Below, piece after piece: positions 2,419 to 9,108 of a DNA stretch of 64,000 bases; the first letter of the stretch is position 1; each line of letters opens with the position of its first letter. The notes under the pieces were generated by a model. The model did not search any database and had not been told where the DNA came from. It worked only from the letters and a program-made list of their open reading frames with translations. This stretch comes from Escherichia phage JLBYU24, in sequence record OK272476.1; one strand, written 5' to 3'. The position numbers and the translations under genes are program-made.

Positions 2419-2448
2419 ATTATACCACATCCTTGTGGTAAAGTAAAC
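2419..2448 (-). promoter_or_regulatory. T4-type early promoter (minus strand GTTTAC-N18-TATAAT)
   Basis: plus-strand attata 2419-2424 and gtaaac 2443-2448 with tgtgg-like extended -10. Confidence 0.55.
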
Positions 2449-4268
2449 TACTGGCTCATCCATTCTTTACGAAGGTCAGCATTATCTCCCATGAGCATTT
2501 CAAAAAGCTCTTTCCAGTTCTCAGGAAGTTTAACAACATCATATACTGGATTTTGAATCATTTCACGATATTCAGATTTTTCCAAAGAGCCAAGTCCTTT
2601 AATATAACGGATGCTATGTTTAGGTAGAGCATCTTTGGCACTCTCATATTCAGCGACTGTATAAAACCATTCTTGTTTTTTACCGACCTGAGCGATGATT
2701 ACAGGAGTTTTGACAAAGCGAATTCGTCCTTGCTCAAACAATTCTGGCCAATTACTAAAAAACCCGAGCAGAGAAGGATAAATGCTTCCTAGACCATCAT
2801 GGTCAGCATCAGTCATAATAGCAATATTATGATAATTCAAGTTTTCAGCTTTTTCACCAAGAACTAATCCAGTGATTGCGCAAATATCAAATAGTTCTTT
2901 GTTTTTAAGCATATCAGCATATGACATACCCCAACTGTTGAGAACTTTACCACGCAATGGATAACCACCATGAAGTTCTTTATCACGAACATCAATAAGA
3001 TATCCGATAGCAGAATCACCCTCAGTCAAGAAAAGAGTAGTATCAGCATCTTTACCGCACAGATTAGCTTTAATATGTTTATGAACCTTTGCCTTAGAAG
3101 CCTTTTTAGCTGCTTTAGTTTCAGCTGCTTTTTCTGCTGCCAATTTACGAGCTAGTGCAGCTTCAATAATTGGCATCAGAATTGCTTCATTATTTAGAAT
3201 AGCGCGTGAAATCTTTTTAGCGTCAAGTTGAATATGACTACGGATTTCACCAAATGGAGAAGTCAAACGCTCTTTAGTTTGAGAATCAAATCGCATGTTT
3301 TTCATATCACGGACAAACATAACGATAGTCAAACATTCTTTGACACGTGCTTTAGTTACATCAATTTTGAACTTACGTTTGATTTGTGGAATAAGGTCTT
3401 CACAAATATCATCCATAACACAGTCAATGTGATGGCCACCATTCTTAGTGTGAATGTTATTCACATAAGTTAATTGGCGAAATCCATCCGGTGAACGACC
3501 AACCGCAATAGAACAATTTTCTTGTTCTTGAACAATAGCATGTTCATCATACTGTCGTGCATATTTCTTAAAATTGCCCTGAACCTTTTTACCATTAAAG
3601 GTAAATTGAATATCAGGATAAACTACTGCAAGTGTCTGGAGACGATCCAGTGTAATGTCAAGATAAACTTGGGACAGCTCATTAGTTTCAAATGACATAA
3701 AATCTGGAATGAAAGTAACACGAGTTCCTTTCCATTTTCCAGGAATAGTTTCCCAGGATTTATTTTCCATGCCATTTGAACAACGAACTACAATATTATT
3801 TTGACCATCGCCAGTTTCACCGACAAACATCACAGAAAAAATGTTTGTCAAACTAGAACCAACACCATTCATACCACCGGTGACGCGTTCTTTATCATCA
3901 CCGAAGTTACCACCCGCTTTTGGAATAGTCCAAGCAGCAACTGGACCAGGAATTTCTTCACCAGTAGGTGTTTTAACCATCGCTTGTGGAATACCGCGAC
4001 CGTTATCTTCAACTGTTACTTGATTGTTTTTAATAGTAACATTAATTTTATTTGCGAATTTAAACTTAGTACGAATACCTTCATCTACTGAGTTATCGAT
4101 AATTTCATCAATAAGCTTAACAAGACCAGGTACATACTGAACACTTTCCCATTTACCAAACAGAAAGCGCTCATGCATTTCATTAGCAGAAGAACCAATG
4201 TACATGCCGCTACGCTTTTTGATATGTTCAATATCGCTCAGAATTTTAATTTCATTCTTAATCATCAC
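2448..4268 (-). CDS. 39: DNA topoisomerase II large subunit, continuous ORF covering T4 gp39 plus gp60-equivalent C-terminus
   Basis: 606 aa; GyrB-like ATPase motifs (IDNSVDEG); TOPRIM-like MTDADHDG segment read without interruption. Confidence 0.9.
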   Translation of the reverse strand: MMIKNEIKILSDIEHIKKRSGMYIGSSANEMHERFLFGKWESVQYVPGLVKLIDEIIDNSVDEGIRTKFKFANKINVTIKNNQVTVEDNGRGIPQAMVKTPTGEEIPGPVAAWTIPKAGGNFGDDKERVTGGMNGVGSSLTNIFSVMFVGETGDGQNNIVVRCSNGMENKSWETIPGKWKGTRVTFIPDFMSFETNELSQVYLDITLDRLQTLAVVYPDIQFTFNGKKVQGNFKKYARQYDEHAIVQEQENCSIAVGRSPDGFRQLTYVNNIHTKNGGHHIDCVMDDICEDLIPQIKRKFKIDVTKARVKECLTIVMFVRDMKNMRFDSQTKERLTSPFGEIRSHIQLDAKKISRAILNNEAILMPIIEAALARKLAAEKAAETKAAKKASKAKVHKHIKANLCGKDADTTLFLTEGDSAIGYLIDVRDKELHGGYPLRGKVLNSWGMSYADMLKNKELFDICAITGLVLGEKAENLNYHNIAIMTDADHDGLGSIYPSLLGFFSNWPELFEQGRIRFVKTPVIIAQVGKKQEWFYTVAEYESAKDALPKHSIRYIKGLGSLEKSEYREMIQNPVYDVVKLPENWKELFEMLMGDNADLRKEWMSQ

Positions 4269-4317
4269 TTATCCTCGTTTGGTTTCGGGAATATTATACT
4301 CCGGTAATCATAAAGCT

Positions 4318-4336
4318 AAAGGCCCGAAGGCCTTTT
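4318..4336 (-). terminator. stable hairpin, C(UUCG)G tetraloop on minus-strand RNA
   Basis: aaaggcc-cgaa-ggccttt inverted repeat immediately 3' of ORF 4335-4607. Confidence 0.55.
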
Positions 4337-4607
4337 ATTTAAAACGGATAGTCGAATCCTTGAAGAATAGACCAGAACATACTGTTCCTTCTACTTTCTG
4401 CCCGGTAGGTCCAATAGCACGAAATCCAGTATGTTGGAAATCATTTTCAGAGCAACCGAACCAATTATATCCAGTGATTTCAATATTAGTAAAACCGCTT
4501 GAAGACAAAATTTTGGTTGCATTATCAGCATCAGTACATCCTACTAAAGATACTGCTAATACTAATGCTGCGATAGAACGATTAACATATTTCATAATTT
4601 CACTCAA
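4335..4607 (-). CDS. putative lipoprotein
   Basis: 90 aa; N-terminal signal peptide with LVGC lipobox-like motif. Confidence 0.5.
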   Translation of the reverse strand: MSEIMKYVNRSIAALVLAVSLVGCTDADNATKILSSSGFTNIEITGYNWFGCSENDFQHTGFRAIGPTGQKVEGTVCSGLFFKDSTIRFK

Positions 4608-4977
4608 ATTTAATGGCTTGAAGAAGACTAATAATTCTCAAGCGACTTCTTTCATCTTTAACTGTAAAAGAAAGAGGGTCACCAGATTTCATAGTGATGG
4701 TGCATCCAAAATCAAAATCTTCTGTAACTTCTTCGAAGAAGTCAAATTCTTCATCATAAATTAGAACATTACTCTGAAAGCTGTGAAGAATTTTTCCATC
4801 ATTTCCAGATGCTGTACTAATCATTGTAACATTATGACCTTTCATATCTTCAACGATAAATTCGCTTGTAGATATTACAGCATTAATAGAACCATTCCTA
4901 TAAATAGCAGACATTAGATATTTCTTTTCTTCGCCTTCGCGAATACGATATTTCTTACCGATTTTAAACATAATCAC
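4600..4977 (-). CDS. hypothetical protein
   Basis: 125-aa ORF; track start is GTG at 4975-4977, likely ATG start at 4969-4971. Confidence 0.45.
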   Translation of the reverse strand: MIMFKIGKKYRIREGEEKKYLMSAIYRNGSINAVISTSEFIVEDMKGHNVTMISTASGNDGKILHSFQSNVLIYDEEFDFFEEVTEDFDFGCTITMKSGDPLSFTVKDERSRLRIISLLQAIKFE

Positions 4978-5152: not shown

Positions 5153-5578
5153 TTATTCCTTAAAATGAGCTTTCAGCATCTGATACAAGGACCATGCCTG
5201 TTCATTATTTTCAATAGTAACTTTCATGACAGGAAATTCTGTGAAATCTTCTATTTGTTCTTGCTCTTGCTCTTCCTGCTCTTGCTCTTCAGCTGCCTGA
5301 TATGGATTTTCCACTTCATCAAAGAACTCGGCTTCGTTAGTAGAGAGCCAGATAAAGTTTTCGTCAAGGATATCACCATGTGTTGCATATCCAATTGTGC
5401 CAGTAAATGACATAATTTTAGTAGGACGACCAAGATGGTCAACATCTAAAATTTTAAAAGGATGCATACCTAAACGGCGTGCATAGATTCCGTTATCAGT
5501 ATGATCTTTAATAAAATTTTCTTGAGCTTGTTTATTTTTAAATTGATACCATTTATTAACTTCAAATCTAATAGCCAT
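5153..5578 (-). CDS. hypothetical acidic protein with EQ-repeat tract (size and position match T4 goF)
   Basis: 141 aa; [14 protein letters not shown] low-complexity segment; assignment positional only. Confidence 0.45.
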
Positions 5579-5793
5579 TAATAAATTTCCTTCCAGTAAG
5601 TTGTACCGTCTTCAGTGATTTCACGGAATACACCATAAATCGGTTGTTTATCACCAACCTTTTCATACACATAAACCGAAGTCAAGTGAGTAAACTTGAT
5701 GGTGTGTTCCTTTTGAACCACTACCAAATCTGGGTCAAATAATACATCTTCAAATTCGTCATTAGTGCAATTCTGAACAATTTTACGTTTCAT
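5578..5793 (-). CDS. hypothetical protein (size and position match T4 cef)
   Basis: 71-aa ORF, start/stop adjacent to neighbours. Confidence 0.4.
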
Positions 5794-5806
5794 TACAATT
5801 TCCTCA

Positions 5807-6088
5807 TTAATTAAACAGTGGAGCGATACGTTTCAGAAGAGTAGCAGCACCTTTGGCGAATTTTACATCATGAAAAACAGTTTCTTCTTCCGTTACAACA
5901 CGAGCTTTAATGTTTTCACAATCCCAATTTTTGCGAACAATCTTCAAAAGCTGCAGTAAATCTTTACATTCAGCAATATCGATAACACATCCACGAGAAT
6001 CTTCCATTATAGCACGATAACCGTAAGCCATACCATAATCGTTGAAAGATTGCTCGATGATAATTAAGTTTTCCATTTTATTCTCCAA
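5807..6088 (-). CDS. hypothetical protein
   Basis: 93-aa ORF in operon context. Confidence 0.45.
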   Translation of the reverse strand: MENKMENLIIIEQSFNDYGMAYGYRAIMEDSRGCVIDIAECKDLLQLLKIVRKNWDCENIKARVVTEEETVFHDVKFAKGAATLLKRIAPLFN

Positions 6089-6183
6089 GTTGTTTTCTGT
6101 ATCAGTAGTTGATATTGATATAGTACCATAATCAACTACTGATGTATATAGTTTTATGAAAAAATTTTAAACTTTATGCAAAT

Positions 6184-6603
6184 TTATGCTAAAGCTGCTT
6201 CGCACCATTTTTTAATTTGGAATTCAGGAACTACCATGAACTGGCCTGCAAAAACAATATTGTAGAGCTTGACACCATCTTCTACCCAACGGTCCGAAAT
6301 AAAACCAGCGACTTGATTCGTTGTCCATGGAGTTCCATCTGTTGCCGCCGCAATTGTGAATTTATGGTCTTTTACAACTAAAACTGAAGAACAAAGTTTC
6401 CATTTAAATGCGCTTTCTTCTGGCTCAATGAACTGACTTGAGACATAACCAATGTTACCATCAGCGTCACGAACTTTAACCTCGTTACGACCAAAAACTG
6501 GATCACTTACAGAAAGAACTTCAACCAGCTTTCCTGCAACTTTAGAACGAGAAGCAACGGATACATATACGTAATCACCAGTAGAGAGATTTACAATATT
6601 CAT
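6184..6603 (-). CDS. MotB-family paralog
   Basis: shares N-terminal SASRSK(V/A)AG(K/R)LVEV and C-terminal WVEDGxKLYNIVF motif with ORF 6613-7131. Confidence 0.5.
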   Translation of the reverse strand: MNIVNLSTGDYVYVSVASRSKVAGKLVEVLSVSDPVFGRNEVKVRDADGNIGYVSSQFIEPEESAFKWKLCSSVLVVKDHKFTIAAATDGTPWTTNQVAGFISDRWVEDGVKLYNIVFAGQFMVVPEFQIKKWCEAALA

Positions 6604-6612
6604 AATAATTCC

Positions 6613-7131
6613 TTAAGCTTTACGAGGAGAAGCATAACGAGTGATTTCAGATTCTTCAACAACCCGGAAGTCACCTAAAAATACAATATTGTATAGCTTT
6701 TTACCGTCTTCAACCCATTGGTCTGTGATGAAGCCACACATCCTATCAGTTTTACTTGGACCAGCGAAATCATCAATATAATCGAATTCTTCATCAGTTA
6801 CAAATTCAACGCCTTTACACAACGCCCATTTAAATTGTGTATTAGACTCAGTGGATTCAACTTCTTCAACAGAAGCAAAATGAGAGCTAACACGAGTTTC
6901 CAGAAATTTAGGACTTACGTAAGCGTACTGAGTTTCAGTTTTTCCAGAACTAGGAATGATTCGAACTTTAACTTCTTTAACACGACCAGTACCATTAGTA
7001 CGAAGTCCTACCACTTCAACTAGACGACCTGCAGCTTTAGAACGAGATGCAGACGATACACGCTTAATTTCACCGATAGTAATCATAATTTTTCTCTCTT
7101 TGTTGTTAAGATTTATACTCCGCAGGACCAT
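6613..7131 (-). CDS. motB: MotB-like DNA-binding protein
   Basis: position after cef-like ORF; probable true start MITIGEIK at ~7086 giving ~157 aa. Confidence 0.5.
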   Translation of the reverse strand: MVLRSINLNNKERKIMITIGEIKRVSSASRSKAAGRLVEVVGLRTNGTGRVKEVKVRIIPSSGKTETQYAYVSPKFLETRVSSHFASVEEVESTESNTQFKWALCKGVEFVTDEEFDYIDDFAGPSKTDRMCGFITDQWVEDGKKLYNIVFLGDFRVVEESEITRYASPRKA

Positions 7132-7159
7132 TATACTCTGGTCCCAAGAGTTTGTAAAC
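7130..7159 (-). promoter_or_regulatory. T4-type early promoter
   Basis: plus attata 7130-7135, gtaaac 7154-7159, 18-nt spacer. Confidence 0.5.
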
Positions 7160-7596
7160 TAGCTTACACGAACATTAATCACTGCGCTGCGAGGAACTAC
7201 AGAGTACTCTCCAGCATGAACTACGTTCAGAAGTTCAACACCATCTTCAATCCACTGATCAGTCACCCATCCACCCACAGGATTCGCGAATGGACGACGA
7301 ATATAAACTGCCTTACACAGCAGATCAGTTGGATCTTCAGGTTTTTCAATTTCTGTCAATAGACTAAAATCTTTTTCATAAATAATAAGCGGTGATACCA
7401 TTCCATAATAGTTTCTAATTTCAATATACATCATACCGATAAGAATTCCGCTATTAACACTAATAACAGTAAAAGGATATCCGCCAGTTAAACCAAGAAG
7501 TTCACAAAACTTATTATGAGCTGTATTAGACAGTACCGAAAAATTCTTAATTTCATCAAATTTTTTCAATTGATAAACAGCATTATTTTTAATCAT
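7159..7596 (-). CDS. MotB-family C-terminal-domain paralog
   Basis: C-terminal GGWVTDQWIEDGVELLNVVHAGEYSVVP matches motif of the two neighbouring ORFs. Confidence 0.45.
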   Translation of the reverse strand: MIKNNAVYQLKKFDEIKNFSVLSNTAHNKFCELLGLTGGYPFTVISVNSGILIGMMYIEIRNYYGMVSPLIIYEKDFSLLTEIEKPEDPTDLLCKAVYIRRPFANPVGGWVTDQWIEDGVELLNVVHAGEYSVVPRSAVINVRVS

Positions 7597-7606
7597 AATT
7601 TTCTCT

Positions 7607-8158
7607 TTAATCTAAGGTAATAAAGCCTTTTAATTCGGCATGGGATTTACGGAACATTACTTGATGCCCACCAATGATAACTTGGTCATCTGGCACTTCA
7701 TAAATCGCAATGTACATTCCACGTTCTTTTAAGTCTTCACGCTCTTCTCGAGTGAACCATCTCATCATATCATATTCACTAGCGAAAGCAAAATGATATA
7801 ATGCAATAAACCACAATGGAATATAATTTTCAATTCGTGAATAATCTTTATTCCATTTAGTTTTAATAACATCATTAGCATTTTCAACTAATAACTTATC
7901 ATCGTGTGGAATAGGAATACTTTCATGGCTTTCATAATTATCGCTATGATGATGAAATGACGATGAATTAATACCGCAAAATTTTAGCCAAGTTCGAGTT
8001 TTCATAGAATCAAATCCACGATAAGGAGTTGATTGAACGCATAACTCTTGCCTAATTTTGACTATACCACTATCATCATTTAATGCGCTAAACGATGATT
8101 CAACACGATAAATTTTCATTTTATTATCCTCAGTAGCTATGGTGTTATAATACCACAA
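7607..8158 (-). CDS. hypothetical protein
   Basis: 183-aa ORF; promoter-like element directly upstream. Confidence 0.45.
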   Translation of the reverse strand: MWYYNTIATEDNKMKIYRVESSFSALNDDSGIVKIRQELCVQSTPYRGFDSMKTRTWLKFCGINSSSFHHHSDNYESHESIPIPHDDKLLVENANDVIKTKWNKDYSRIENYIPLWFIALYHFAFASEYDMMRWFTREEREDLKERGMYIAIYEVPDDQVIIGGHQVMFRKSHAELKGFITLD

Positions 8159-8176
8159 CTAACCGAGGAAGTAAAC
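8147..8176 (-). promoter_or_regulatory. T4-type early promoter
   Basis: minus strand GTTTAC-N18-TATTAT with tgtgg extended -10. Confidence 0.5.
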
Positions 8177-8185
8177 AACTTTTTA

Positions 8186-8866
8186 TCATTTTGTTGGAAG
8201 AGACAGAGGATCGCAATCTTCCTCTGACGGAGCATCTTCAAGACCCATAGCGTATCGCAAAGCATACTTCATCATCAGGATGTCTTTCGCACAGTCATGA
8301 ATAGAATCATGTGCAACGAATCCATCTAAAGTTCCCTTTGGAAGAGGACACGTGGTCATATCACGAACAAGCAGAAGTGCTTCAATTCTGGTACGAATAT
8401 CACGCTGATTCCAGAATTTACATGGTTCTAACTTAAATGTATCAAGCTCATTCTCGGAAACGCCATTAAGACGTTGAATATCGCGAATGAGATCGACTAA
8501 AATTGGAAAATCAAACGACATTCCACGGCACCAGCCTTGAGATTTCCAAGGATCGATATTATGTGCATTGATGTAATCGTTGAATTTTGCAATACCATCA
8601 ATGGTGCTTACATCTTCATCGGATGGTGCAATATTTTTTCGAGCTTCAGGAGACTGATTTTTCCACCATTCGATAGTGCTTTTAGTAAAAAGACGATGTC
8701 CTTTTTGGCTTTTTAAATCAAATTTGATTTTAATGCCACGTGAAACTAGTTCATCGAATGATTCAACTACTTCTGGGTTAGGGTCAAAAGCAATTACAGC
8801 CAAATCAATAACAGCTGCTTTTTCACCGCTTCCCATTGTTTCAAAATCTATAATAAAATCAAACAT
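8186..8866 (-). CDS. dexA: exonuclease A, DEDD-family 3'-5' exonuclease
   Basis: 226 aa; N-terminal DFETMG exonuclease motif; size and position match T4 DexA. Confidence 0.85.
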   Translation of the reverse strand: MFDFIIDFETMGSGEKAAVIDLAVIAFDPNPEVVESFDELVSRGIKIKFDLKSQKGHRLFTKSTIEWWKNQSPEARKNIAPSDEDVSTIDGIAKFNDYINAHNIDPWKSQGWCRGMSFDFPILVDLIRDIQRLNGVSENELDTFKLEPCKFWNQRDIRTRIEALLLVRDMTTCPLPKGTLDGFVAHDSIHDCAKDILMMKYALRYAMGLEDAPSEEDCDPLSLPTK

Positions 8867-9108
8867 TAAATTTTCCTCGCTAAATCACGAATTTGACCTA
8901 CAGTATAATCTTGGATATAAACTTTATTAATGGGCTCATCAATAAATTTTGCCATAGATTCAATATCTTTTTGTATCTCTTCAAGACTGTATACTATCTT
9001 TAAAGCTTTTTCGCGAATAGTAACATTATCAGGTCCTGAATTTTCTTGAATGACAGCTTTAACATTTGCCATAAGAGATTTAAACTGATGCAAACTTAAT
9101 TCAATCAT
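8866..9108 (-). CDS. hypothetical protein (dexA.1 position)
   Basis: 80-aa ORF, stop/start abutting neighbours. Confidence 0.45.
   Translation of the reverse strand: MIELSLHQFKSLMANVKAVIQENSGPDNVTIREKALKIVYSLEEIQKDIESMAKFIDEPINKVYIQDYTVGQIRDLARKI

What the first reader, a model, noticed from the sequence alone, without database searches (positions are those of the whole stretch)
6184..7596. Three consecutive genes sharing a C-terminal WVEDG-KLYNIVF domain
ORFs 6184-6603 and 6613-7131 share both an N-terminal SASRSK-AG-LVEV segment and the C-terminal motif. ORF 7159-7596 shares only the C-terminal domain behind a different N-terminus. This looks like domain shuffling within a small DNA-binding protein family.
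Basis: seen in the sequence. Interest (0 to 1): 0.4.

Follow-up and report, generated by a model that had tools for sequence, protein, structure and literature searches.

The report
MotB-family gene trio of T4-like phage
The three neighbouring genes are the known motB.1, motB and "MotB-like" early genes of a T4-type phage; they do share a C-terminal domain, as published in 2021, so the finding is correct but ordinary.

Summary
All three genes lie on the minus strand. They share a roughly 38-residue C-terminal core, G[FW][IV][ST]D[QR]W[VI]EDG..L.N[IV]V. Pairwise BLASTP gives 1e-29, 2e-13 and 2e-11. A core profile hits only these three ORFs in the window (about 1e-26; next best 0.31).

The window is a Tequatrovirus close to RB27 (96-98% identity). 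The genes are:
- motB.1, 7159-7596
- motB, 6613-7086. The ORF as reported, up to 7131, is over-extended, because that ATG lies inside a promoter -10 box.
- a second MotB-like copy, 6184-6603, which T4 lacks but RB69, RB27 and about 207 phage records carry.

All three pass Pfam PF17613 (motB). MotB and the MotB-like copy share a KOW-like N-terminal barrel. The MotB.1 N-terminus is not detectably related to it (hhalign E=0.21) and instead resembles the GoF-type barrel.

Across the family the same C-terminal domain joins three N-terminal classes, and hybrids exist, so domain shuffling is supported. DNA binding has been shown only for T4 MotB.

Patterson-West et al. 2021 (PMC7827196) already described the shared CTD, the different NTDs and multiple copies. 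Small additions here: AlphaFold2 topology suggests the CTD is SH3/Tudor-like, not OB-fold. The reference T4 and RB69 motB.1 genes are frameshifted inside the CTD.

The parts
6184..6603 (-). MotB-like second copy (139 aa; RB27_010 / RB69p010 orthologue). It has a KOW-like N-terminal barrel plus a long-type MotB C-terminal domain. T4 lacks this gene.
   Evidence: - Pfam PF17613 72.1 bits (cutoff 25). PHROG 1671 E=1e-50.
- 100% identical to RB27_010.
- tblastn finds 207 phage records with an orthologue at 80% identity or more, and 566 records with only a match below 60%, i.e. MotB proper.
- AF2 pLDDT 89.6, pTM 0.79.
- dN/dS 0.15 against Mosigvirus LF82-5.
6613..7086 (-). motB (157 aa from the internal ATG). 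The mechanical ORF extends to 7131, but that start is probably not used.
   Evidence: - Pfam PF17613 142 bits, with residues 16-168 of the long ORF matching profile positions 2-158.
- RB27 annotates the 157-aa form.
- 85% identical to RB69 MotB and 46% to T4 MotB.
- dN/dS 0.19.
7159..7596 (-). motB.1 (145 aa, intact form). It has a GoF-like/LSm-like N-terminal barrel plus a short-type MotB C-terminal domain.
   Evidence: - PHROG 2333 E=9e-68.
- Pfam PF17613 32.7 bits, on residues 104-139 only.
- 78% identical to T4 MotB.1 over 116 residues.
- AF2 pLDDT 83.4.
- dN/dS 0.30.
6205..6318 (-). Shared C-terminal core in the MotB-like copy (aa 96-133, NQVAGFISDRWVEDGVKLYNIVFAGQFMVVPEFQIKKW).
   Evidence: Core HMM domain E=1.8e-26. 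Sequence printed.
6634..6747 (-). Shared C-terminal core in MotB (aa 114-151 of the 157-aa form, DRMCGFITDQWVEDGKKLYNIVFLGDFRVVEESEITRY).
   Evidence: Core HMM domain E=3.8e-27. hhalign of long against short CTD gives E=1.8e-17.
7171..7284 (-). Shared C-terminal core in MotB.1 (aa 105-142, NPVGGWVTDQWIEDGVELLNVVHAGEYSVVPRSAVINV).
   Evidence: Core HMM domain E=6.1e-26.
6418..6603 (-). KOW-like N-terminal barrel of the MotB-like copy (aa 1-62, containing SVASRSKVAGKLVEV). Net charge is -2.
   Evidence: - NTD profile E=5e-20.
- DSSP shows strand 1-4, a 3-10 helix, then strand 5.
- Charge.
6898..7086 (-). KOW-like N-terminal barrel of MotB (aa 1-63, containing SSASRSKAAGRLVEV). Net charge is +7, pI 10.4.
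   Evidence: - NTD profile E=3e-38.
- Charge.
- 48-nt DNA repeat at 79% identity with 6518-6565.
7348..7596 (-). N-terminal barrel of MotB.1 (aa 1-83). It has an inserted helix (24-37) and is unrelated by sequence to the MotB NTD.
   Evidence: - hhalign against the MotB NTD: E=0.21.
- hhalign against the NTD of the 180-aa class: E=4e-4 over 70 columns.
- DSSP.
- BFVD hit to GoF: E=0.016, TMt 0.47.
7130..7158 (-). Promoter-like site (TTTACA, 17 nt, TATAAT) directly upstream of motB. Its -10 box contains the ATG of the over-extended ORF.
   Evidence: 11 of 12 consensus positions match, the best site in 5700-8300. Sequence read. This is a consensus match only; it has not been shown to be functional.

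Best explanation
The region holds three early, non-essential host-takeover genes of the MotB family in a T4-like phage (Tequatrovirus, RB27-like). In transcription order on the minus strand they are motB.1, motB and a second MotB-like copy.

Domain structure:
- Each protein is predicted to be two small beta-barrels.
- MotB and the MotB-like copy are old whole-gene duplicates: a KOW-like N-terminal barrel plus a family-specific C-terminal barrel.
- MotB.1 carries the same C-terminal barrel behind a different, GoF-type N-terminal barrel. This is a product of domain exchange within the family.

Shown elsewhere for T4 MotB only: it is abundant early in infection, binds DNA tightly without sequence specificity, changes the H-NS footprint on DNA, de-represses part of the H-NS regulon, and doubles burst size.

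Inferred here:
- The window's MotB acts the same way through its strongly basic KOW-like N-terminal barrel.
- The conserved, acidic-to-neutral, aromatic-rich C-terminal barrel is a common partner-binding or self-association module rather than the DNA-contacting surface.
- The variable N-terminal barrels give each paralogue a different nucleic-acid or protein specificity.
For: Identity:
- 96-98% DNA identity to RB27-like phages, with the same genes annotated as motB.1 / motB / MotB-like.
- Pfam PF17613 is above its cutoff for all three. PHROGs 1671 and 2333 match.
- The same trio occurs in RB69.

Homology pattern.

Modularity:
- Three NTD classes, hybrids, and double-barrel forms.
- The family is narrow. 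Only 36 representatives among 1.84 billion reach E<=1e-3, and the small ones are all 100-250 aa.

All three genes are under purifying selection (dN/dS 0.15-0.30). Paralogue cores are saturated at synonymous sites (pS 0.67-0.75), so the duplication is old and is not maintained by gene conversion.

Structure:
- AF2 models have pLDDT 89.6 and 83.4.
- In both proteins each half shows strands 1-4, a 3-10 helix, then strand 5.
- A distant member, P0279, passes both Pfam KOW and Pfam motB.

Charge: MotB NTD +7 (pI 10.4); CTDs -5, 0 and -3.

Function of T4 MotB: PMC6070864 and PMC7827196.
Against: - No experiment exists for the MotB-like copy.
- T4 MotB.1 showed no phenotype in burst size or in an RNA reporter (PMC12152347).
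- The window's MotB is only 46% identical to the tested T4 protein. It is acidic overall (pI 6.0 against 9.2 for T4 MotB), and the NTD of the MotB-like copy is acidic, so T4-like DNA affinity is not assured.
- The published view leaves open that the CTD, predicted there as an OB-fold, is the DNA-binding part. No DNA-independent MotB-H-NS contact was found, which weakens a protein-partner role for the CTD.
Confidence: 0.85

Rival explanations
1. There was no shuffling. All three genes arose by tandem whole-gene duplication, and the MotB.1 N-terminus is just an extremely diverged version of the MotB KOW-like barrel.
For: - The genes are adjacent and co-oriented.
- Both N-terminal domains are predicted five-stranded SH3-like barrels.
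- BLASTP extends the MotB.1/MotB alignment into the N-terminus, pairing EIKNFSVLSNT..ELLGL with EIKRVSSASRSK..EVVGL.
Against: - Profile-profile comparison of the two NTD families gives E=0.21 over 9 columns.
- The MotB NTD profile does not hit MotB.1, and the reverse is also true.
- The MotB.1 NTD matches the GoF-like NTD of the 180-aa class instead (E=4e-4 over 70 columns). It also hits GoF by fold, in line with PMC12152347.
- Proteins with a MotB-type NTD fused to the MotB.1-type CTD exist.
Confidence: 0.12
2. The shared C-terminal domain is the DNA-binding module, an OB-fold as predicted by HHpred in 2021. All three proteins would then be DNA binders through it, with the N-termini as accessory domains.
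For: - PMC7827196 predicted a cold-shock-type OB-fold for the MotB CTD and notes that either domain could bind DNA.
- The CTD is the part conserved across all architectures.
- The T4 MotB CTD is mildly basic, +2.
Against: - The AF2 topology of the CTD has the short helix between strands 4 and 5 and a tight hairpin between strands 3 and 4. That is SH3-like, not OB-like.
- The invariant core is acidic (D-x-W-x-E-D-G), and the window's CTDs carry net charges of -5, 0 and -3.
Confidence: 0.25
3. The C-terminal similarity is kept high by recent gene conversion between neighbouring copies, not by selection on an old shared domain.
For: The copies are tandem and co-oriented. A 48-nt stretch at 79% identity links the two MotB-type copies.
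Against: - That DNA repeat lies in the N-terminal KOW motif, not in the CTD.
- CTD cores are only 49-61% identical at the nucleotide level, and their synonymous differences are saturated (pS 0.67-0.75).
Confidence: 0.02

Closest known systems
T4 MotB (NP_049626; Pfam PF17613 'Modifier of transcription'; PMC6070864, PMC7827196)
   Same: - Same genomic slot, between cef and dexA.
- Same two-domain architecture.
- 46% identity to the window's MotB and 37% to the MotB-like copy.
- Pfam scores of 142 and 72 bits.
   Different: - The window's MotB is the RB69-type allele (85% identical to RB69 MotB).
- It is acidic overall (pI 6.0 against 9.2).
- T4 has no second copy.
RB69 / RB27 'MotB-like' second copy (RB69p010, RB27_010; UniRef name 'MotB-like protein')
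   Same: The 139-aa protein is 100% identical to RB27_010. It sits immediately downstream of motB, as in RB69. Orthologues at 83-100% identity are nearly all 139 aa.
   Different: Nothing of substance. It is the same gene, and it has never been characterised.
T4 MotB.1 (P39415, 13.8 kDa) and the GoF / MotB.1 / Frd.2 'LSm-like fold' family (PMC12152347)
   Same: 78% identity over 116 residues, with the same N-terminal barrel. A weak fold match to GoF (E=0.016).
   Different: - The window's protein is the intact 145-aa form with the full C-terminal domain.
- The T4 reference gene carries a 1-nt insertion in the WIEDG codons and stops at 119 aa.
- The RB69 gene is also broken.
KOW / Tudor / SH3-like small beta-barrels (NusG and Spt5 KOW domains, 53BP1 tandem Tudor)
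   Same: - Predicted fold and strand order of both halves.
- One distant family member passes Pfam KOW.
   Different: - Sequence identity is 10-20% only.
- The window's proteins do not hit Pfam KOW at E<=1.
- There is no evidence for ribosome/RNAP contacts or methyl-lysine cages.

Membership tests
Pfam PF17613 motB (Modifier of transcription) | Whole-protein score above the curated gathering threshold (25 bits) | tested here: met
   Scores are 72.1, 142 and 32.7 bits for 6184-6603, 6613-7131 and 7159-7596. For MotB.1 only the C-terminal 36 residues match.
MotB proper (T4 MotB orthologue group) | Full-length homology covering both the KOW-like NTD and the long CTD, in the cef-dexA interval | tested here: met
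   - 6613-7086 matches T4 MotB over 157 columns at E=4e-47, and 6184-6603 matches it at E=3e-24.
- Synteny.
- MotB.1 does not meet this feature; it matches in the CTD only.
MotB proper (function) | Tight, sequence-nonspecific DNA binding and alteration of H-NS-DNA complexes | not testable with these tools
   Shown only for T4 MotB (PMC6070864, PMC7827196). An indirect indicator is that the MotB NTD is basic (+7), whereas the MotB-like NTD is -2 and MotB.1 is acidic.
KOW motif domain (Pfam PF00467) for the MotB-type NTD | Match to the KOW profile above threshold (22.3 bits), and an SH3-like barrel fold | tested here: inconclusive
   - The window's proteins give no KOW hit at E<=1.
- The distant family member P0279 scores 24.8 bits, above the cutoff, together with Pfam motB. 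However, the MotB NTD profile does not itself reach P0279 (E=0.42).
OB-fold, cold-shock type (published prediction for the CTD) | Five-stranded barrel with the helix between strands 3 and 4 | tested here: not met
   - In both AF2 models the CTD has a tight strand 3-4 hairpin and a 3-10 helix between strands 4 and 5.
- This rests on predicted structures, not solved ones.
GoF / MotB.1 / Frd.2 LSm-like barrel family (for the MotB.1 NTD) | Homology or fold similarity of the NTD to GoF-type barrels | tested here: inconclusive
   - 78% identical to T4 MotB.1, a founding member.
- hhalign to the GoF-like NTD of the 180-aa class gives E=4e-4 but a probability of only 34%.
- Foldseek hit to GoF of phage VR7: E=0.016, TMt 0.47.
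Tudor / 'royal family' readers | Aromatic cage that binds methylated lysine or arginine | not tested
   Only overall fold similarity was found. Side-chain geometry could not be inspected.

The most novel reading that the evidence does not exclude
The family-defining C-terminal domain may be an SH3/Tudor-like partner-binding or self-association barrel rather than an OB-fold DNA binder. It would let MotB, the MotB-like copy and MotB.1 act on a common target or assemble together, while their different N-terminal barrels supply different nucleic-acid specificities. The reference T4 and RB69 motB.1 genes are frameshifted inside this domain. The published lack of phenotype for T4 MotB.1 may therefore describe a crippled protein, and the intact 145-aa form in this window could have an activity that has not yet been seen.
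Probability: 0.25. Interest if true: 0.4.

Novelty: already known. Interest (0 to 1): 0.15.

Why it matters
As it stands, little: the paralogy, the shared C-terminal domain with different N-termini, and the multiple copies are published (PMC7827196), and public records annotate these genes as MotB-like.

Two by-products could help people working on T4 early proteins:
- The predicted fold of the shared domain looks SH3/Tudor-like rather than OB-like. This changes which domain one would test for DNA binding.
- The MotB.1 of the laboratory reference phages T4 and RB69 lacks most of the shared domain because of frameshifts. Functional work on MotB.1 should use an intact allele such as the one in this window.

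Tried and rejected
- **MotB.1 NTD as a diverged MotB NTD.** The BLASTP alignment suggested this. Profile-profile and profile-sequence searches rejected it.
- **Internal duplication, with the CTD derived from the NTD.** No signal; hhalign E was at least 0.17.
- **Further copies of the CTD in the 64-kb window.** None found.
- **Gene conversion between paralogues.** Rejected.
- **Solved structures of relatives by sequence.** None at E<=1.
- **NCBIfam and PADLOC.** Nothing significant.
- **Search for CTD relatives outside T4-like phages, over 1.84 billion representatives.** It returned only about 27 small family members. The few long proteins it hit are false positives on a GYQWQKNG repeat.
- **Foldseek against AFDB50.** This could not be run because the library is unavailable.

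Full report
**What is in the sequence**

The window is a T4-type phage genome segment with about 35% G+C and a uniformly negative GC skew. Nearly all long ORFs around the finding are on the minus strand. The stretch 5500-8900 is 96-98% identical to Tequatrovirus phages such as vB_EcoM-S1P5QW, RB27 and RB3.

In RB27 the corresponding genes are annotated as follows:
- dexA
- motB.2
- motB.1
- motB
- a second 'MotB-like transcriptional regulator'
- a 90-aa hypothetical protein
- cef
- goF

T4 itself has motB.1 and motB. It lacks the second MotB-like gene and the small ORF next to it. The finding's three ORFs are therefore motB.1 (7159-7596), motB (6613-7131 as a mechanical ORF) and the MotB-like copy (6184-6603). 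All three are on the minus strand and are transcribed in that order.

**Check of the observation**

Pairwise BLASTP gives:
- E=1e-29 for the two downstream genes, full length, 40% identity
- E=2e-13 for MotB.1 against MotB
- E=2e-11 for MotB.1 against the MotB-like copy, covering only 32 C-terminal residues at 53% identity

A profile of the 48-residue core was built from 92 distinct family sequences. It hits exactly these three ORFs among 931 stop-to-stop segments of the window (E about 1e-26 to 1e-27; next best 0.31). All three exceed the gathering score of Pfam PF17613 'motB'.

One correction concerns the motB start. The ATG at 7131 lies inside the -10 hexamer of the best promoter-like site in the region (TTTACA-17-TATAAT, 11 of 12 positions, at 7158-7130). 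The Pfam profile begins matching at residue 16, and RB27 annotates the 157-aa form. The gene is most likely 6613-7086.

**Same or different N-termini**

- A profile of the MotB-type N-terminal domain hits MotB (3e-38) and the MotB-like copy (5e-20) but not MotB.1.
- A profile of the MotB.1 N-terminus hits only MotB.1.
- Profile-profile comparison of the two N-terminal families gives E=0.21 over 9 columns, which is no detectable homology.
- The MotB.1 N-terminus does align over 70 columns (E=4e-4, probability 34%) with the N-terminal region of a third class of 180-250-aa proteins that carry the same C-terminal domain.
- The long (MotB-type) and short (MotB.1-type) C-terminal domains match at E=1.8e-17 over 37 columns.
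- There is no sign that the C-terminal domain is an internal duplicate of the N-terminal one.

The N-terminal part of the BLASTP alignment is not supported.

**Family-wide picture**

Searches with the three proteins returned 263 cluster representatives, essentially all from T4-like phages of enterobacteria. When clustered by their N-terminal parts they fall into three classes:
- MotB/KOW-like: 106 members
- a 180-250-aa class with one or two GoF-like barrels: 86 members
- MotB.1-like: 30 members

Hybrids exist. P0119 and P0264 (Klebsiella phage pzk-kv8 type), together with P0266, P0267, P0269-P0271 and P0274, combine a MotB-type N-terminus (E down to 2e-22) with the MotB.1-type short C-terminal domain.

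An exhaustive HMMER search with the C-terminal profile over 1.84 billion representatives found only 36 hits at E<=1e-3. The genuine ones are all small proteins of about 100-250 aa. The long ones are repeat false positives. This is a narrow, modular, phage-specific family, and domain exchange is the simplest reading.

The most distant members (P0279, P0289) keep a canonical KOW-type N-terminus. P0279 passes both Pfam KOW and Pfam motB. KOW plus C-terminal domain is therefore probably the ancestral architecture.

**Age and constraint**

The MotB-like copy forms a discrete orthologous group. tblastn gives 207 phage records at 80% identity or more, 566 records with only a match below 60% (MotB proper), and nothing in between. 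Full-length orthologues at 83-100% identity are almost all 139 aa.

Against the Mosigvirus LF82-5 orthologues, dN/dS is 0.15 (MotB-like), 0.19 (MotB) and 0.30 (MotB.1). Between paralogues in the window, the core is 49-61% identical in DNA and synonymous sites are saturated (pS 0.67-0.75). The only DNA-level repeat between copies is a 48-nt stretch at 79% identity in the N-terminal SASRSK motif. The copies are old, separately maintained genes, not recent duplicates or conversion products.

**Structure**

AlphaFold2 with family alignments gives confident models:
- MotB-like copy: pLDDT 89.6, pTM 0.79
- MotB.1: pLDDT 83.4, pTM 0.56

In both proteins each half shows four strands, a one-turn 3-10 helix and a fifth strand. 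That is the SH3-like small-barrel order. The MotB.1 N-terminal barrel has an extra helix at residues 24-37.

**How it probably works**

The following is shown in the literature for T4 MotB only (PMC6070864, PMC7827196):
- It is an abundant early protein.
- It binds unmodified and glucosyl-hmC DNA tightly without sequence specificity.
- It co-purifies with H-NS and StpA only in the presence of DNA.
- It changes the H-NS footprint.
- It up-regulates 75 host genes, about a third of them H-NS-repressed.
- It doubles burst size.

T4 MotB.1 is dispensable, runs as monomer and dimer, and had no effect in an RNA reporter assay (PMC12152347).

The following is inferred here. The window's MotB has a strongly basic N-terminal barrel (+7, pI 10.4). 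The shared C-terminal domains are acidic to neutral (-5, 0, -3), and their invariant core is D-x-W-x-E-D-G. I therefore think the N-terminal barrel is the nucleic-acid-binding part. On this reading the shared C-terminal barrel is a common interaction or self-association module. The paralogues would then differ in what their N-terminal barrel recognises.

This is a hypothesis. The MotB-like copy has an acidic N-terminal barrel (-2), and nothing is known about its activity.

**Comparison with what is known**

The core of the finding is published. Patterson-West et al. 2021 aligned 102 homologues and reported the following:
- One gene probably arose by duplication of the other.
- RB69 has two copies of motB plus motB.1.

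RB69's annotation has shown the same trio since its deposition. Public records name the 139-aa protein 'MotB-like'. Novelty is therefore 'already known', and interest is low.

**By-products**

1. The T4 reference motB.1 has one extra G in the codons for W-I-E-D-G. This truncates the protein at 119 aa. The next frame still encodes EDGVELLNVVHAGEYSVVPRSAVVAILN.
2. RB69 motB.1 is broken by two frameshifts. The 29-aa ORF RB69p012, which is 'Category 3' in the 2021 paper, is simply the orphaned end of its C-terminal domain.
3. The intact form, as in this window, is the common one. Experiments done with T4 MotB.1 therefore used a protein lacking most of the shared domain.
4. The window's MotB allele is RB69-like (85% identity) and only 46% identical to T4 MotB, although the flanks are Tequatrovirus-like. 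This indicates allele exchange between genera.

Noticed in passing
L002 (T4 NC_000866.4) 4143-4651, minus strand; compare window 7159-7596: The T4 reference motB.1 carries a 1-nt insertion (ATTGGAAGATGG against ATTGAAGATGG) inside the conserved WIEDG codons. The annotated protein therefore ends at 119 aa (…DQWIGRWR*). The next frame still encodes the rest of the shared domain (EDGVELLNVVHAGEYSVVPRSAVVAILN). The published experiments on T4 MotB.1 thus used a protein lacking most of the C-terminal domain.
   Followed up: partly
L003 (RB69 NC_004928.1) 4377-4873, minus strand: RB69 motB.1 is interrupted by two frameshifts in the C-terminal domain. The separately annotated 29-aa ORF RB69p012 is the orphaned end of that domain. 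It is the 'Category 3' peptide of PMC7827196. Both reference laboratory phages thus have a broken motB.1 CTD, from real mutations or from old sequencing errors.
   Followed up: partly
window 5807-6603: Relative to T4, the window has about 0.8 kb extra between cef and motB. The extra DNA holds the MotB-like copy and a 93-aa ORF (5807-6088, phrog_3720, unknown function).
   Followed up: partly
window 6101-6143: A 20-nt inverted repeat (85% complementary, 3-nt loop) lies in the gap between the MotB-like gene and the 93-aa ORF. It may be a transcript-end or processing hairpin.
   Followed up: no
window 4600-4977, minus strand: A 125-aa ORF (RB27_005, hypothetical) between 39.1 and 39.2 matches the profile of the GoF-like N-terminal barrel of the 180-aa MotB.1-related class (E=3.8e-4). 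It is probably another member of the GoF/MotB.1/Frd.2 barrel family, and T4 has no annotated gene at this position.
   Followed up: partly
window 6613-7086: The window's MotB allele is 85% identical to MotB of RB69 (Mosigvirus) but only 46% to T4 MotB, although the surrounding DNA is Tequatrovirus-like. This points to exchange of motB alleles between genera.
   Followed up: partly
family members P0030, P0265, P0027, P0028, P0119, P0266-P0271 (no window coordinates): A short conserved motif, D-x-D-[VI]-[AE]-[SC]-M-Y…P, occurs at different positions in different architectures. It sits at the N-terminus of the 180-aa class and between the two domains in MotB.1 of RB68-type phages and in the MotB-NTD/short-CTD hybrids. 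This is a further mark of modular rearrangement.
   Followed up: partly
window 2448-4268, minus strand: The topoisomerase II large subunit gp39 is a single 606-aa ORF here. It is not split into genes 39 and 60 with a mobA remnant, as in T4.
   Followed up: no
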